Origin: Nitrosopumilaceae archaeon
Lineage (GTDB): Archaea > Thermoproteota > Nitrososphaeria > Nitrososphaerales > Nitrosopumilaceae
Reading direction: 5' to 3'
Assembly: GCA_965207375.1 (NCBI GenBank)
Contig: OZ242274.1
Coordinates: 1,984,001 to 2,048,000, forward strand
Length of the DNA: 64,000 bases
The stretch's first letter is position 1. Each line of letters opens with the position of its first letter. Both the position numbers and the translations under genes were made by a program. Positions 1,151 to 46,854 of this stretch are shown in pieces. The notes below the pieces were generated by a model. That model ran no database searches. It was not told where the DNA came from and saw only the letters and a list, made by a program, of their open reading frames with translations.

Positions 1151-1225
1151 CGGGCCCGACCGGATTCGAACCGGCGACCTAACGCTCCGCAAGCGTTCGC
1201 ACTATCCATGCTATGCAACGAGCCC
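1151..1225 (-). tRNA. tRNA-Arg(GCG)
   Basis: Reverse complement folds as a cloverleaf: GGGCTCG acceptor, AACGC-TTGCGGA-GCGTT anticodon arm, GGTTCGAATCC T arm. Confidence 0.95.
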
Positions 1226-5182: not shown

Positions 5183-5305
5183 TGGTCCCAAGCGAAGGAA
5201 TTGAACCTTCGACAACCCGGTTTCTGTATGCCTGATATGCTGTTTTACGGTCAGCCAGAGCCGACATCTACAGCCGGAAGCTCTACCAGGCTGAGCTAGC
5301 TTGGG
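5183..5305 (-). tRNA. tRNA-Tyr(GTA) with intron at 37/38 and encoded CCA
   Basis: Reverse complement: CCCAAGC acceptor (C1:G72), CCGG-CT-GTA, ~45-nt intron, GGTTCAATTCC, ends ACCA. Confidence 0.93.
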
Positions 5306-10803: not shown

Positions 10804-11166
10804 TCAAAATAACGTTAACAGATACGAATCATCTATACCCAGATTCTGCATCGGCATATCAAGCAGTCAGTATCCCAACATGTCGCGCCGAACACAATAG
10901 TAAATGTTTGAGAATTTCTTTGCAACACTTTCGTATATTTCCAGTCTTTTGGCAATTTCCCAAAATATCTTTTCAAACTTTTGTGTCACCTCCTTACCTG
11001 TAAGTTCTGTAGTCATTTCTATCTTTTTTATGATACTATCATACATCTCATCTGTGTCAGAAGGAATTTGTGGTTCATCTACCATGTATCTACCTGTATC
11101 AGTTATGGTAACCTTTGCATCTCCAATATCATACTGTTCTAGTATCGTAACATCAGATGATTTCAT
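10804..11166 (-). pseudogene. N-terminal fragment of a VirB11/FlaI/TadA-type secretion ATPase
   Basis: YYCVRRDMLGY*LLDMPMQNLGIDD resembles the YY..RD..GYG.ID..M.D..IEDI motif; in-frame TGA at 10867-10869; no ATPase domain follows. Confidence 0.7.
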
Positions 11167-11319
11167 ATCTGCACGCAAGAGTCTATAGTCCAATGATATC
11201 ACAGAAATATTTTGTATAAAAGGAACAAGTTTCTGGTTTTTGAAATGTCAGCTTGGTTTGTGCTATACAAGATACATTGACCTACAGTAAATTCTATTTC
11301 TTGTTACAATACATTTTGC

Positions 11320-12814
11320 GTACTTGTTCACCTATTTTTGAGCATTTTTGGCCCTAAATGTACCGAACCAGCTCTACTAGATAATCCTGTCCCAGATTCT
11401 TCCAGGTAGTAACACACGTATACAGATTGCCTCTACGCTCCATACTTTTTTCAGATCTGAGACATCCACGTATTCTCCTGCACACGACATACTCACGCAG
11501 GCTCTGCTCTGCAAGATTGCTTGTAGATGGTATACGAGGGTCTATGACAAACCGGAACATGTCAGGTATGGCCCGTGACAGTTTTGCTACAAATTTACCC
11601 ACAATTTCATCATTGGCATACCTTTTGACAAGGTTACGTGTTCTTTTTTCCAATTGTACAGCATATGATTCTCTGTAATCAGGTGGTTTGTCTAGGACAT
11701 GTTTGCCGTCATGGTATATTTTCTGTAGGCATTGTAGTGTATTTTTTGCAATTTTAGAATCTGGATTCTTTTGTGATATTGTTTTGATTTCACGTATTAG
11801 GTGCGCGTTACATCTCTGGATGATATATCTGCGGTATGGAGGCCATCCGTCACAGGTTATGATTATATCTTGTGAGTCACCTATTATTTCCTTGAGTACG
11901 TTTGCTCCCCTGCTGGGATTAATTATATAGAAATTCTCACTTGTAATTGGATTATGAAACGTCCACAACCATATAGTCTTTCCATGCAGTCGCTCTGATG
12001 TCTCATCTGCTATCAGAATCTCGGCTTCCTGTATCTTTTCTTTTATCTCATTTGCAGGCACAAATAACGCATCAGAGACTGTATCTATGATGTTTTGAAT
12101 ACCTCCTTCAGATATTTCGATTCCACGTCTTTTCATGGCCTCCTTGTTCATACGTACCGGCATGTGATGTATGTGGTTATCCATTATCTCCTTTATCACT
12201 TCATTTCCAAACTGACCTTTTTTTGGAATGTCAACCTCGGGTGTAATGTCAGTAGCTCCACAGCAGTTGCAATGATACCCATGAATCTTGTGCTTGCAAG
12301 TATGTGGAGGAGGAGTTTTTACAATATCAGTTATTATCCTGATTTTGGTGTCTGTATGGTGTATGTCTTGAGAACCACACTTGGTACACGTGTCTAATTT
12401 GTGCTCTTTTTCTTCATCTACTTTGACCTTGCGGGCTACACCTGTGCGACCAGGTTGTCCTCCCTGTTTTTTTCCAGTAGATTTTTTGTTCTCTGCACGT
12501 ATTTTGCGGTCCTGCTTGCGTGTAATGGAATCCTTAGATGGAGGAGTATTGGAATTGTCATGATAGTTGTCACGTTTGGTAAGCTCTTGAATTTTTTTAT
12601 CTTTTTGTAGTAGGAGGTCATCTTTTTGTAATATGATTTTTTGTAAACTTGATACTAGAGATTCAAGAAGAAGGACTTTTCGGTGTTCCTTTTTGTATGC
12701 ACTTTTCCAGTTGATGGTACTCATTATACAACTTGTGAGTCAGAATGATTTAGATCTGATGGTGATCAAAATTTGAACAAATGGTGAAATTGTAGACACC
12801 ACGTGAACAAGTAC
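11320..12814 (-). mobile_element. IS66-family element (single-ORF, ISBst12-like), 1495 bp
   Basis: Perfect 12-bp IRs GTACTTGTTCAC (11320-11331) / GTGAACAAGTAC (12803-12814); 8-bp TSD CATTTTGC at 11312-11319 and 12815-12822. Confidence 0.95.
11354..12724 (-). CDS. IS66 family DDE transposase
   Basis: Coiled coil, NSNTPPSKD, GGQPG, CxxC...CxxC, ADET, CDGW, QRCNAHLIR, SNLAEQSLR. Confidence 0.95.
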   Translation of the reverse strand: MSTINWKSAYKKEHRKVLLLESLVSSLQKIILQKDDLLLQKDKKIQELTKRDNYHDNSNTPPSKDSITRKQDRKIRAENKKSTGKKQGGQPGRTGVARKVKVDEEKEHKLDTCTKCGSQDIHHTDTKIRIITDIVKTPPPHTCKHKIHGYHCNCCGATDITPEVDIPKKGQFGNEVIKEIMDNHIHHMPVRMNKEAMKRRGIEISEGGIQNIIDTVSDALFVPANEIKEKIQEAEILIADETSERLHGKTIWLWTFHNPITSENFYIINPSRGANVLKEIIGDSQDIIITCDGWPPYRRYIIQRCNAHLIREIKTISQKNPDSKIAKNTLQCLQKIYHDGKHVLDKPPDYRESYAVQLEKRTRNLVKRYANDEIVGKFVAKLSRAIPDMFRFVIDPRIPSTSNLAEQSLREYVVCRRIRGCLRSEKSMERRGNLYTCVTTWKNLGQDYLVELVRYI

Positions 12815-12874
12815 CATTTTGCAATCCATAATTATTTCAAGATATAAATTATAGATACACGTAACATTACACAC

Positions 12875-12975
12875 GGTAGGTTTACCTAGCTAGGTAAGGT
12901 GTCGCCCTGAAGCGGTTGCCTCAGAGAGGCGATTGTGTCACGAGCACATCGTGGGTTCGAATCCCACACCTACCG
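12875..12975 (+). tRNA. Intron-containing class II tRNA: Ser-type body, anticodon GAA after 37/38 splicing (identity uncertain)
   Basis: GGTAGGT/ACCTACC acceptor, G73, ACCT/AGGT D stem, TCGCC/GGCGA stem, BHB intron 12913-12926, 18-nt variable region, GTGGG-TTCGAAT-CCCAC. Confidence 0.88.
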
Positions 12976-13291
12976 CTAGAATCTATAACTATATTAATTT
13001 TCAAGACTATATCACGCCTGAAACCATGACACGAAAATACACGTAACAGATCGACTTTCTGAAGTTACTTTGATTTTTAGATGATCCATGAAACTAGACA
13101 GTTAATGCTAAAGAATCGAAAGTGGGAATATTACATATTTTGTAAGTGTTAATGTCATGACTAGGTTTTGACCATTTACAATCAAATTTTTGGCAACATG
13201 ATCTAAATGAGGTCAAATAGCCAAACCATACGTTGACAGATTACAAAAAACTCTAAAGACAAACTAACTAAATCTAAAATTCAAACAGATA

Positions 13292-13720
13292 ATGGAGGTA
13301 CAAGATAACATGTTGCAAAAAAAGATGTCATAATACAAAAAAAGAATGACACAGAAATAAATCTAAAAAATACAGTAAGATAACTAGAAAATGATGTACA
13401 CAATTTAAAAACTATTGTCACTGATCTTAATAAAAAACTCCAATTTTATGATAATACACATACTGTATAATCACGCAAGATGTCAGAAAAGAAGAGAGTT
13501 GAGAATAAAACTGAGAATAAAAACAAGAAAACGACAGGTAAATGAGGAGCACCAAAAGGACACGAAGGTGCAACAAGCCAAAACCTACAAAATTCAAACA
13601 ACACACGCCAGCAAAATGTCCAGAGTATGGTTATGAAGATCTTGAAATTAACGAAACACAGATACGCGACATTACAGACGTACCACAACCAGTACTGCAA
13701 CAGTCTGAAACAACACGTAG
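13292..13720 (+). pseudogene. Degenerate IS66 transposase 5' fragment
   Basis: Frameshifted pieces KLQFYDNTHT, KKTTGK*GAPKGHEG, KCPEYG...IRDITDVPQP parallel the N-terminus of the intact IS66 transposase (NYHDNSNT, KKSTGKKQGGQPG, CTKCG...IRIITDI). Confidence 0.75.
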
Positions 13721-14012
13721 TAATCACAAAAAAGATTGGAATCATAAATTCCATTATTATGGCGTCGTCATGTCTGACTACACGGGTTTGCGTTCCATTC
13801 TTTGTTAAAATCACTATACACACCGATACAACAAATCTCTTTAAATTCTCGAATCTTGAAATGTATGTAATTTCGACTGCTAGTAGCAATGAAATGTATG
13901 CTCCCAATGGTTATCAGGTGTTCACGATGTTAACATTTACAATTTTTTTGAGAACAGATAACTATTCAACATAACGACTTAAGACCACGTACGATATCGT
14001 GTTTTTTATTAT

Positions 14013-46561: not shown

Positions 46562-46854
46562 ATCAAGCGAGCTGGAGCACGACACGCTGCTACGGCAGAG
46601 GAAACTCCTCCCTCCCTACAGGAAATGTGATCTGGAGATAGATAATCAGAGATGGTTGGAAACAGAACAGAAAAACAATCCCTGCCGAAATTACAGTGAT
46701 GGTGAAAAACCTGAGATGTTCGGCGAAGGAATGAAAGAGCTGGCCCACATGGAGCAAGGCCAAATAGAACCTTACGTGCCTGTACCGGGTTCAGGTAGGC
46801 TGCAAAGCTAAATATCGTGAAAACAAAAGGAGGGTTACTCCCAGCACGCTTGAT
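46562..46854 (+). ncRNA. rnpB: Archaeal RNase P RNA
   Basis: P1 ATCAAGCG/CGCTTGAT; P4 halves GAGGAAACTCC and AACAAAAGGAGGGTTA; GGAGCAAGGCCAAATAG. Confidence 0.92.

What the first reader, a model, noticed from the sequence alone, without database searches (positions are those of the whole stretch)
12875..12975. tRNA with a serine-type class II body but a phenylalanine (GAA) anticodon
Seen: a well-paired cloverleaf with a textbook bulge-helix-bulge (CTGA/TCAG central helix, AGC and AGA bulges) placing a 14-nt intron at 37/38 (12913-12926). Splicing gives the loop CT-GAA-GA. The body has a long variable arm (TGTGT/GCACA stem), discriminator G73 and an ACCTAGCTAGGTAAGGT D arm. Established: SerRS recognises the long variable arm and ignores the anticodon, and archaeal tRNA-Ser has G73; tRNA-Phe is normally class I with A73. 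The intron pairs with the anticodon's A35, which argues against a single sequencing error. Inference: this could be a dedicated Ser-for-Phe mistranslating or alternative-decoding tRNA, an anticodon-edited tRNA, or a tRNA with a non-ribosomal role. I found no BHB that would remove the variable arm or yield a GGA anticodon.
Basis: partly seen in the sequence, partly recalled or inferred. Interest (0 to 1): 0.85.

Follow-up and report, generated by a model that had tools for sequence, protein, structure and literature searches.

The report
Transposon-linked long-arm tRNA reading phenylalanine codons
This is a real, well-folded extra tRNA gene whose body looks like a serine/leucine tRNA but whose anticodon reads phenylalanine codons, and it belongs to a small family of such mismatched tRNAs that travel with a transposon in marine ammonia-oxidising archaea.

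Summary
Window 12875-12975 (+) is a tRNA gene (Rfam tRNA 43.8 bits, cut-off 29). It has a textbook bulge-helix-bulge intron (12913-12926), anticodon GAA, a 5-bp variable arm and G73. The genome also has a normal class I tRNA-Phe(GAA) with A73 and four tRNA-Ser genes, so this gene is an extra.

New here: it is one of a family. I parsed 16 homologues from 13 Nitrosopumilaceae genomes. BLAST found matches in 12 of 400 other family genomes. Compensatory changes keep the cloverleaf and the variable arm (14 of 26 pairs; 0 of 500 shuffles reach this). The anticodon varies: GAA, GAT, TAT, CAG.

The gene sits in a fixed slot just upstream of the promoter of an IS6-like transposase. Sister elements hold a C/D-box-like small RNA in that slot. 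In this window the transposase is gone and other insertion sequences crowd the site.

Which amino acid it carries cannot be told from sequence: the D arm and G73 are serine-like, the T arm is leucine-like. No RNA data were available.

Best reading: a mobile-element-borne class II tRNA with mismatched anticodon, an archaeal counterpart of bacterial allo-tRNAs and nematode nev-tRNAs. Whether it mistranslates is open.

The parts
12875..12975 (+). Intron-containing class II tRNA gene, anticodon GAA, discriminator G
   Evidence: Rfam tRNA 43.8 bits; ARAGORN with introns allowed; all 21 stem pairs form
12875..12912 (+). 5' exon: acceptor 5' strand, D arm 12884-12900, anticodon stem 5' strand 12902-12906, loop positions 32-37
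12909..12911 (+). Anticodon GAA; G34 and A35 pair with the intron in the central helix of the splicing motif
12913..12926 (+). 14-nt intron at 37/38 inside a canonical bulge-helix-bulge motif
   Evidence: Top of 110 candidate motifs. The same intron is in L059 and L060. It resembles a duplicate of the 3' anticodon-stem strand plus the start of the variable arm (alignment A2)
12927..12975 (+). 3' exon: position 38, anticodon stem 3' strand 12928-12932, variable arm, T arm 12951-12967, acceptor 3' strand 12968-12974, G73
12934..12948 (+). Variable arm: 5-bp stem (one G-U pair) with loop CACGA
   Evidence: The homologous helix keeps pairing through changes on both sides in 3 of 5 pairs across 10 relatives
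12842..12849 (+). A/T-rich box (ATATAAAT) 26-33 nt upstream of the tRNA; putative archaeal TATA box
   Evidence: A similar A/T-rich box lies at about -30 in homologues (sequences printed). That this is a promoter is inferred
12990..13028 (+). Relic of the promoter and start of the transposase that follows this tRNA in relatives: TATATTAATTTT box at 12990-13001, then ATG at 13026 opening a frame that stops after 6 codons
   Evidence: Homology with relatives runs 20-45 nt past the tRNA 3' end. The intact gene follows in L059, L088 and L109
11306..12820 (-). IS66-family insertion sequence (transposase ORF 11354-12724), inserted about 55 nt upstream of the tRNA
   Evidence: Pfam DDE_Tnp_IS66; NCBIfam IS66 215 bits against a cut-off of 180; nine further copies at about 99% over about 1.5 kb, and the paralogous locus lacks it
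10828..11283 (-). Left part of the duplicated module, with a 111-aa ORF (10867-11202) of no known family
   Evidence: 81.5% DNA identity and 81% protein identity with C1:1369762-1370218, which sits directly beside a truncated copy of the tRNA; no Pfam hit
13034..13906 (.). Block of dispersed repeats downstream: 13034-13095 with 17 listed copies, 13136-13718 with 13 listed matches (9 spanning about 560-580 nt), and others
   Evidence: blastn of the region against the genome

Best explanation
This is a structurally intact accessory tRNA gene. It is not the cell's tRNA-Phe and not one of its tRNA-Ser genes. It belongs to a family of class II (long variable arm) tRNA genes scattered among Nitrosopumilaceae genomes. 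These genes occupy a fixed slot directly upstream of the promoter of an IS6-like transposase, inside a repeated mobile unit.

Shown: the fold, the canonical splicing motif, the family, the compensatory changes, the varying anticodon (GAA, GAT, TAT, CAG), the link to the transposase, and the presence of normal tRNA-Phe and tRNA-Ile in the same genomes.

Inferred: the gene is transcribed from its own A/T-rich box, and the splicing endonuclease removes the 14-nt intron. Because the two synthetases that accept long-arm tRNAs (SerRS, LeuRS) do not read the anticodon, the tRNA is charged according to its body. With G73 and a serine-type D arm that most likely means serine; leucine is less likely. 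It would then compete weakly with the normal tRNA-Phe at UUU and UUC.

In this genome the copy is a remnant of its element. The transposase is lost, an IS66 lies 55 nt upstream and repeats lie downstream, but the tRNA itself is undamaged.
For: Real tRNA with a canonical intron.

An extra gene: a canonical tRNA-Phe with A73 and four tRNA-Ser genes are in G000. A canonical tRNA-Phe is in 5 of 5 other genomes tested, 4 of which carry the family. A canonical tRNA-Ile(GAT) is in 5 of 5 genomes that carry GAT members.

Family: an exact 18-mer scan of species genomes gave 4 stretches, 3 of them homologues. BLAST in 400 other family genomes gave 8 hits with this gene and 10 with a GAT member, 12 genomes in union.

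Selection on the fold: 323 of 336 stem cells pair across 16 members. On 10 intron-less members 97.7% pair and 14 of 26 pairs change on both sides, against 5.1 +/- 1.5 in shuffles (0 of 500 reach it) and 1-3 in slid controls. The variable-arm helix is included.

Anticodons: GAA 5 (plus one 6-nt loop), GAT 8, TAT 1, CAG 1. G73 in 14 of 16.

Transposon link: the tRNA is followed at 41-50 nt by an IS6-like transposase (NCBIfam IS6 120.6 bits, cut-off 125; Pfam DDE_Tnp_IS240 and SWIM). It is full length in L059, L088 and L109, with remnants in L089, L090 and L092. Of the 10 transposase loci whose upstream region I read, 2 hold a class II tRNA in the slot, 7 hold C/D-box-like sequence by eye, and 1 (L112) shows neither. 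One of the 7 scores 33 bits, E 0.0015, on Rfam snoPyro_CD, below that model's cut-off of 45. Two identical 2560-bp copies with about 58-nt inverted ends enclose that slot. In one genome a tRNA-bearing copy and an sRNA-bearing copy share an 89% identical 500-nt block upstream of the slot as well as the transposase.

Serine-like features: G73, and the D arm has the length of native tRNA-Ser. PMC9976931 (passages) states that replacing A73 by G73 switches leucine identity to serine in several contexts.

Only one SerRS and one set of class Ia synthetases were found, so no dedicated extra enzyme.
Against: There is no evidence of expression, splicing or charging; no RNA run was available.

In this window the transposase is missing and the site is full of other mobile DNA. 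A paralogue 625 kb away is truncated after the 5' half.

Several family members are damaged. G004 has a 6-nt loop, L081 a broken anticodon stem, L102 pairs only 2 of 5 in the anticodon stem, L061 only 2 of 5 in the T stem, and L082 and L090 are partial.

Serine identity is uncertain. Pair 30-40 is C-G here, and the T arm and the U before position 48 are as in native tRNA-Leu. One homologue has A73.

Five of the eight GAT members have G37, where decoders of A-starting codons normally have A37 (recalled). Three (two with G37, one with A37) have C33. This speaks against optimised decoding.

The inverted repeat around the tRNA plus transposase in L118 is at a rearranged end with a nested IS630-like element, so no tRNA-bearing copy has cleanly defined ends.
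Confidence: 0.55

Rival explanations
1. Decaying relic. The gene is leftover transposon cargo with no present function in this genome. Its intact fold only reflects recent origin.
For: The transposase is lost, an IS66 lies at -55 and repeats lie downstream. The paralogous copy is truncated, and a second 3' fragment exists at C1:1372445-1372514. The same-genus homologue G004 has a 6-nt anticodon loop. Several relatives are damaged. The usual T-run directly after the 3' end seen in relatives is replaced here.
Against: All 21 stem pairs and the whole splicing motif are intact. A relative from another study keeps the full gene with GAA; one of its differences turns a G-C pair into G-U. Across the family the stems are kept by compensatory changes, which neutral decay does not give.
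Confidence: 0.2
2. Not a translator. The tRNA-shaped RNA serves the transposon itself. It could be a strong terminator or insulator in front of the transposase promoter, a processing signal, or a regulator. It would be interchangeable with the C/D-box-like RNA found in the same slot.
For: The same slot holds either a tRNA or a C/D-box-like RNA. A T-run and then the transposase promoter box follow directly. G37 in GAT members and C33 in some. [quoted passage not shown]
Against: Features needed only for translation are kept in most members: a 7-nt loop in 15 of 16 after splicing, U33 in 13 of 16, G18G19, the T loop, and a splicing motif at the canonical position. A35 is invariant in 16 of 16, but with so few independent changes this is weak.
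Confidence: 0.15
3. Spare cognate tRNA. PheRS reads the anticodon and charges it with phenylalanine despite the long arm, and the GAT members are charged by IleRS. The family would then simply add decoding capacity for very common A/T-rich codons.
For: The spliced loop CTGAAGA is identical to the loop of the genome's own tRNA-Phe. All family anticodons have A35, which the synthetases for hydrophobic amino acids read (recalled, general knowledge). L059 has A73.
Against: G73 in 14 of 16, where native Phe has A73. A long variable arm is not known in any archaeal tRNA-Phe or tRNA-Ile (recalled). G37 sits in GAT members.
Confidence: 0.08
4. The variable arm is a second intron, and the mature product is an ordinary class I tRNA-Phe.
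For: Introns in the variable region with proper bulge-helix-bulge motifs do exist in this order, in tRNA genes with TCG or CCG anticodons in another family.
Against: No bulge-helix-bulge candidate removes the arm and leaves a T stem. The arm is a continuous helix kept by compensatory changes in relatives. G73 is present, and a normal tRNA-Phe exists.
Confidence: 0.02

Closest known systems
[quoted passage not shown]
   Same: Class II tRNAs whose anticodon belongs to neither Ser nor Leu, including an Ile anticodon (UAU). They exist alongside the normal tRNA set. Charging followed the body (leucine), not the anticodon.
   Different: They are eukaryotic and, per the 2014 review's table, not listed for Archaea or Bacteria. 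They derive from tRNA-Leu. No link to a transposase is described. The main anticodons are CCC and UAU rather than GAA and GAT.
Bacterial allo-tRNAs (PMC5389517, abstract and passages)
   Same: Serine-identity tRNAs with a long arm and non-serine anticodons. UAU is the most abundant group. Some lie beside toxin-antitoxin or transposon genes. Some insert Ser at Leu codons in E. coli and are toxic, while many UAU members were inactive.
   Different: Allo-tRNAs have an 8/4 or 9/3 acceptor/T-stem layout, whereas this family is 7/5. They are bacterial and have no intron. No fixed slot upstream of a transposase is described.
tRNA-Ser(CAG) of CUG-clade yeasts and serine tRNA anticodon variants (PMC2246281, PMC6041473, PMC6827378: abstract starts in the search listings only; a human tRNA-Ser(AAA) variant is recalled)
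   Same: A serine body with an anticodon for a hydrophobic amino acid. This works because SerRS ignores the anticodon.
   Different: Those are chromosomal genes that reassign or blur one codon in a whole lineage. Here the gene is sporadic (12 of 400 genomes), tied to a mobile element, and varies in anticodon.
Archaeal intron-containing tRNA genes (canonical bulge-helix-bulge at 37/38)
   Same: A 4-bp central helix flanked by two 3-nt bulges, cut at 37/38. Other tRNAs of this genome carry such introns (Tyr, Met, Ser-GGA).
   Different: Nothing differs in the motif itself. Only the tRNA that carries it is unusual.

Membership tests
tRNA (Rfam RF00005) | Score at or above the curated gathering score (29 bits) over the full model | tested here: met
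   43.8 bits, model positions 1-71 of 71
Class II tRNA | [quoted passage not shown] | tested here: met
   5-bp stem at 12934-12938 / 12944-12948. The helix covaries in relatives, 3 of 5 pairs
Archaeal bulge-helix-bulge intron | 4-bp central helix flanked by two 3-nt bulges on opposite strands, with cuts that give a 7-nt anticodon loop | tested here: met
   Top of 110 candidates, cuts after 12912 and 12926
Archaeal bulge-helix-bulge intron | Actually removed by the splicing endonuclease | not testable with these tools
   No RNA run listed
tRNA-Phe | Anticodon GAA | tested here: met
   12909-12911; the loop is the same as in the native tRNA-Phe
tRNA-Phe | Class I body (short variable loop) and A73, as in this genome's own tRNA-Phe | tested here: not met
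   Long arm and G73. The native gene at C1:1921024-1921100 has a short variable region and A73-CCA
tRNA-Ser (archaeal) | Long variable arm plus G73 | tested here: met
   the four native tRNA-Ser all end in G73
tRNA-Ser (archaeal) | G30-C40 pair (named for archaeal SerRS in PMC9976931, passage) | tested here: not met
   C30-G40 here. All four native tRNA-Ser have G30-C40 by my reading of the sequences
tRNA-Ser (archaeal) | A serine anticodon (NGA or GCU) | tested here: not met
   GAA
tRNA-Ser (archaeal) | Charged by SerRS | not testable with these tools
   Needs an aminoacylation assay
tRNA-Leu (archaeal) | A73 (PMC9976931, passage) | tested here: not met
   G73 here and in 14 of 16 family members; A73 only in L059
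tRNA-Leu (archaeal) | Variable-arm loop with A47c-G47d and U47h at the base (Haloferax rule, PMC9976931 passage) | tested here: inconclusive
   A U lies between the arm and C48 as in native tRNA-Leu, but the loop CACGA has no AG step. Native loops read TTAG. The rule comes from another archaeal phylum
allo-tRNA | 8/4 or 9/3 acceptor/T-stem layout | tested here: not met
   7/5 in all 16 members
Cargo of the IS6-like element | Lies between the element's ends, next to its transposase | tested here: inconclusive
   In this window the transposase is absent; only its promoter box and a 6-codon relic remain. In relatives the tRNA abuts the transposase and lies inside a repeated unit. Clean ends were shown only for an sRNA-bearing copy

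The most novel reading that the evidence does not exclude
An IS6-like transposon lineage of Nitrosopumilaceae has a dedicated small-RNA slot in front of its transposase. It fills the slot either with a C/D-box guide RNA or with a class II tRNA whose anticodon reads Phe, Ile or Leu codons. The tRNA is active: it is charged with serine (or leucine) regardless of anticodon, so the transposon brings its host a dose of proteome-wide misreading of the commonest hydrophobic codons. This would be the first mobile, naturally mistranslating tRNA in Archaea.
Probability: 0.2. Interest if true: 0.85.

Novelty: new variant of a known kind. Interest (0 to 1): 0.66.

Why it matters
Long-arm tRNAs whose anticodon disagrees with their body are known from nematodes and from some bacteria. 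The 2014 review table I read lists none for Archaea (PMC4033280, passages). My searches and the passages read in the thaumarchaeal mobile-element survey (PMC6563490) turned up no description of this family.

If these tRNAs are charged and used, abundant marine ammonia oxidisers would carry a transposon-borne source of Phe/Ile/Leu misreading. That bears on how far the genetic code is enforced in nature and on what mobile elements can do to their hosts.

Even if they are not used in translation, a transposon that keeps a small-RNA gene in a fixed slot ahead of its transposase is an unexplained design worth testing. The family also gives a clean example of a tRNA intron that looks born by a local duplication.

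Tried and rejected
Variable arm as a second intron, or another cut giving GGA: rejected.

Sequencing error: rejected.

Expression: no RNA holder listed; the runs laid were contigs only.

Viral origin: the pattern scan of viral contigs found 0. blastn against phage and plasmid records found no match.

Metagenome scan with the 18-mer: 12 stretches, none tRNA-like by ARAGORN.

Pattern search for intron-less class II tRNAs with loop CTGAAGA in 400 other genomes of the order: 42 of 401 genomes matched, G000 included. Of the 30 loci I read, only this genome's own C1:1677242 is such a tRNA. About 16 were tRNA genes with TCG or CCG anticodons and an insert in the variable region; the rest were chance or coding sequence. 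The other 14 listed matches were seen only as matched strings.

A BLAST search for homologues of the second class II GAA tRNA in 60 relatives found only T-arm matches.

The 111-aa ORF beside the tRNA has no Pfam family and occurs next to no other family member.

Inverted-end search: no clear ends around the tRNA plus transposase in L059/L103 or L109. The end motif of genome G393 is not found in other genomes' loci or in the window.

Flanks of the odd class I GAA tRNA-like genes: no informative Pfam hit.

Sequence identity to native Ser against native Leu does not separate them for this gene.

A dedicated extra synthetase: not found with PF02403 and PF00133. Other synthetase families were not searched.

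Supplementary files of papers were not opened; the supplementary tables of PMC6563490 and PMC5389517 may list tRNA genes or loci that bear on the novelty claim.
Full report
1. THE OBSERVATION

- Acceptor stem GGTAGGT/ACCTACC pairs 7 of 7.
- D stem ACCT/AGGT closes a 9-nt loop that carries G18G19.
- Anticodon stem is TCGCC/GGCGA.
- The variable-arm stem TGTGT/GCACA has 5 bp.
- T stem GTGGG/CCCAC closes loop TTCGAAT.
- The discriminator is G (parse).

Default ARAGORN and the whole-window Rfam run at gathering thresholds missed the gene. On 12800-13050 the Rfam tRNA model scores 43.8 bits (cut-off 29, E 2e-08). The whole-genome search gives the same score.

I enumerated every pair of cut sites in 12860-12990 that gives a 4-bp central helix; there were 110 candidates. 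It cuts after 12912 and 12926, with central helix CTGA/TCAG, bulges AGC and AGA, a 6-bp outer helix and a 2-bp inner helix. Splicing gives loop CTGAAGA, anticodon GAA. No candidate removes the variable arm while leaving a T stem, and none gives GGA.

Contigs of three public runs from two studies carry 12816-13033 without a difference, although these may include the source of the assembly. A run from a third study carries a relative with 5 differences over 12866-13005, none listed in the anticodon.

2. AN EXTRA GENE, NOT THE CELL'S tRNA-Phe OR tRNA-Ser

The window is G000:C1:1984001-2048000, in a 4.3-Mb genome of 4 contigs. ARAGORN with introns predicts 68 tRNA genes. Rfam gives 64 matches at E <= 0.01.
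- A canonical class I tRNA-Phe(GAA) with A73 and an encoded CCA lies at C1:1921024-1921100.
- tRNA-Ser genes with GGA, TGA, GCT and CGA anticodons are all present on C1, each ending in G73.
- The native tRNA-Leu genes end in A73.
- Only one SerRS gene (C1:891095-891412 region) and four class Ia synthetase genes were found, so there is no sign of a dedicated extra enzyme.

3. THE GENE BELONGS TO A FAMILY

BLAST of the 101 nt against 60 relatives gave one full-length homologue, in same-genus genome G004, plus many T-arm-only matches of 18-31 nt. It also gave two partial copies in the genome itself. One is a 5' half at C1:1370295-1370337. The other is a 3' part at C1:1372445-1372514 on the other strand.

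An exact 18-mer scan of one genome per prokaryote species found four stretches. Three are homologues: two records titled Nitrosopumilus sp. and one titled Thaumarchaeota archaeon.

BLAST against 400 other genomes of the family found matches in 8 with this gene as query and in 10 with a GAT member as query. The union is 12 of 400. Only the two best candidates per genome were scored, so copy numbers are lower bounds. Ten of the 12 are genomes of 1.9-3.2 Mb, at the large end for this family; the other two are 1.2 and 1.4 Mb.

I parsed 16 members into cloverleaf segments.
- Anticodons: GAA in 5 (this gene, L059 and L060 with the same 14-nt intron; L100 and L096 without); a 6-nt loop CTGAAA in G004; GAT in 8 (one with a 16-nt insert in a looser motif); TAT in 1; CAG in 1.
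- The genome's own 3' fragment would read GAG.
- The discriminator is G in 14 of 16, A in L059 and T in the damaged L102.
- Across all 16 members, 323 of 336 stem cells pair, and 11 of 21 pairs show a change on both sides.

On a MAFFT alignment of the 10 intact intron-less members (A3) the named structure fares as follows:
- 97.7% of cells pair.
- 14 of 26 pairs change on both sides, against 5.1 +/- 1.5 in 500 shuffles (0 reach the observed value).
- Slid controls give 1-3.
- The acceptor, D, anticodon and variable-arm helices all show compensatory pairs; the T stem never varies.

The sequences are related, so the shuffle count overstates significance, but the slid controls do not share that weakness. 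The fold, including the long arm, is under selection.

Genomes with family members also keep the ordinary tRNAs. A canonical tRNA-Phe was found in 5 of 5 genomes tested, 4 of which carry the family. A canonical tRNA-Ile(GAT) was found in 5 of 5.

4. CONTEXT: A SLOT IN FRONT OF AN IS6-LIKE TRANSPOSASE

Homology between family loci from different genomes usually runs from about 10 nt upstream of the tRNA to 20-45 nt beyond its 3' end, and then stops. So the gene sits in different neighbourhoods.

The shared downstream piece is a T-run, an A/T box (TATATTAATTTT or close to it), GAGGTG, and then ATGAA (sequences). In L059 that ATG, 41 nt after the tRNA, opens a 383-aa protein.
- Pfam finds a SWIM zinc finger and a DDE_Tnp_IS240 domain.
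- Its best NCBIfam match is IS6 family transposase at 120.6 bits, just under the cut-off of 125.

With that protein as query, a full-length homologue follows the tRNA in L088, and remnants follow it in L089, L090 and L092. Another copy follows a CAG member in L109. No match was found with this query at the other family loci.

The transposase family is abundant in four of the five genomes searched (11-28 matches each). I read the upstream region of 10 transposase loci. Each shows an A/T-rich box ahead of the start codon, and most show the GAGGTG step.
- 2 have a class II tRNA in the slot.
- 7 have sequence that by eye carries C, D', C' and D boxes (box motifs recalled).
- 1 (L112) shows neither.

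The clearest C/D-box-like example (L104) matches Rfam snoPyro_CD end to end at 33 bits, E 0.0015, below that model's cut-off of 45.

Two identical 2560-bp copies in genome G393 with about 58-nt inverted ends enclose the transposase, the slot and about 1.1 kb more. There the small-RNA gene is inside the element.

In genome G415 the tRNA-bearing copy (L103) and an sRNA-bearing copy (L111) share the transposase and also a 500-nt block at 89% identity on the far side of the slot. In L059 that side holds a divergently oriented N6_N4 DNA methylase, and L060 has a methylase-HNH gene in the same place.

In L118 a perfect 20-nt inverted repeat brackets the transposase and the tRNA. That end is rearranged and a nested IS630-like gene pair lies inside, so I do not count it as clean ends.

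Taken together, the tRNA is best read as an internal part of a mobile unit, not as its insertion target. Clean ends for a tRNA-bearing copy remain to be shown.

5. THE LOCUS IN THIS WINDOW

An IS66-family element occupies 11306-12820. Nine further copies at about 99% identity over about 1.5 kb lie elsewhere in the genome. It splits a module that is continuous at the paralogous locus C1:1369762-1370337. That module is a 111-aa ORF of no known family followed by the tRNA.

The A/T box 26-33 nt upstream of the tRNA lies inside the retained part. Downstream, the promoter box of the transposase is kept (12990-13001), but the frame from ATG 13026 stops after 6 codons. Dispersed repeats follow.

So this copy is a stranded remnant of its element, with an undamaged tRNA.

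6. WHAT IT MOST LIKELY DOES

From passages of PMC9976931:
- Leucine identity rests on A73 in all domains and, in Haloferax, on specific variable-arm nucleotides.
- Replacing A73 by G73 switches leucine to serine identity in several contexts.
- For archaeal SerRS, G73 and then G30-C40 are strong elements.
- Neither system reads the anticodon.

This gene has G73, and its D arm has exactly the build of the native tRNA-Ser (17 nt from position 10 to 25, one nucleotide after G18G19). The native tRNA-Leu have 19 nt and three nucleotides.

Against serine: pair 30-40 is C-G, and the T arm and the U before C48 are as in native tRNA-Leu. Identity of the two halves to native Ser and Leu overlaps (5' part 0.59-0.67 against 0.52-0.63; 3' part 0.64-0.80 against 0.76-0.84).

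I therefore put serine charging first, leucine second, charging by PheRS third, and no charging as a real possibility.

The anticodons seen (GAA, GAT, TAT, CAG, GAG) are linked by single steps at positions 34 and 36, with A35 fixed. The GAG fragment with G37 has the same 34-37 (GAGG) as the native tRNA-Leu(GAG) loop. This suggests descent from a leucine-type anticodon arm. With so few independent changes the constancy of A35 is weak evidence.

G37 in five of the eight GAT members and C33 in three members are not what an optimised decoder would have (expectation recalled).

7. COMPARISON WITH WHAT IS KNOWN

The closest known cases are two.
- Nematode nev-tRNAs are class II tRNAs with Gly or Ile anticodons. 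They are charged with leucine and weakly expressed (PMC3333845 abstract; PMC4033280 passages).
- Bacterial allo-tRNAs have serine identity with many anticodons, UAU being the most abundant. Some are active and toxic in E. coli. Some are inactive and sit beside toxin-antitoxin or transposon genes (PMC5389517 passages).

This family works like them in design but is a member of neither. It is archaeal, it has the standard 7/5 layout (not 8/4 or 9/3), some members carry a canonical archaeal intron, and it sits in a fixed slot before an IS6-like transposase.

I found no description of it in four literature searches or in the passages read from the survey of thaumarchaeal mobile elements (PMC6563490). 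Supplementary files were not seen.

8. VERDICT

The gene is one member of a mobile family with varying anticodon, and its amino-acid identity and use are untested.

Novelty: a new variant of a known kind. Interest: 0.66.

Noticed in passing
G000:C1:1677242-1677325 (+), outside the window (L001:8243-8326): A second class II tRNA with loop CTGAAGA (anticodon GAA), G73 and no intron. Its 5' part is 0.81 identical to native tRNA-Ser and it scores 55.7 bits on Rfam tRNA. No close homologue was found in 60 relatives. An insertion sequence starts about 120 nt downstream.
   Followed up: partly
L001:8164-8205 (G000:C1, about 40 nt upstream of the second class II tRNA): A short hairpin-flanked element repeats two internal segments of that tRNA in swapped order: first the 3' anticodon-stem strand with the start of the variable arm, then the 5' anticodon-stem strand with the loop. 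Unexplained.
   Followed up: no
G000:C1:234286, 1341225, 1355322, 1407365, 1444064, 1974998 (all outside the window): Six class I tRNA-like paralogues share a T arm and flanks of up to 2.7 kb. Five are called GAA and one AAG. Several have mismatched or odd anticodon arms, and Rfam scores are 39-63 bits. Neighbouring large ORFs have no Pfam family. Counting C1:823190 as well, the genome has 9 genes called tRNA-Phe(gaa).
   Followed up: partly
Loci L104, L105, L106, L108, L111, L114, L115-L117 (relatives' genomes): C/D-box-like small RNA genes lie directly upstream of the promoter of IS6-like transposases, in the slot that holds the tRNA in other copies. The best Rfam hit is snoPyro_CD at 33 bits, below its cut-off of 45. 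Their guide targets were not examined.
   Followed up: partly
window 12907-12932 compared with L084, L089 and others (alignment A2): The 14-nt intron plus the 3' anticodon-stem strand aligns with the 3' anticodon-stem strand plus variable arm of intron-less relatives. It looks as if the intron arose by a local duplication.
   Followed up: no
Loci L031, L032, L034-L044, L046 (another family of the same order): tRNA genes with TCG or CCG anticodons carry a bulge-helix-bulge-type insert in the variable region, with the same CTGA/TCAG central helix. In the genus where they are commonest, 13 of 55 genomes matched the pattern.
   Followed up: no
window 11306-12820 and genome-wide: The genome is very rich in insertion sequences. 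Ten near-identical IS66 copies (this one included), nine full-length copies of another IS6-like element and many short dispersed repeats were seen. At 4.3 Mb it is two to three times the size of most relatives listed.
   Followed up: partly
window 1151-1225 (-), 5186-5305 (-), 46567-46849 (+): Ordinary RNA genes in the window: tRNA-Arg(GCG); a tRNA called Tyr(GTA) by ARAGORN with a 46-49-nt intron; and archaeal RNase P RNA at 186 bits.
   Followed up: no
G000:C3:493064-494328 and C4:791282-807196: Clusters of tRNA genes sit on the smaller contigs: three Thr plus Gln on C3, and five Arg on C4. A bacterial-looking tRNA-Ser(TGA) lies at C4:187578. These may mark mobile or foreign DNA.
   Followed up: no
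L091 (G675:C1:1696503-1699590): Four copies of the class II tRNA family lie within 2.6 kb. They share upstream and downstream flanks that differ from the transposase-linked motif. Two are intact GAT members and two are damaged.
   Followed up: no
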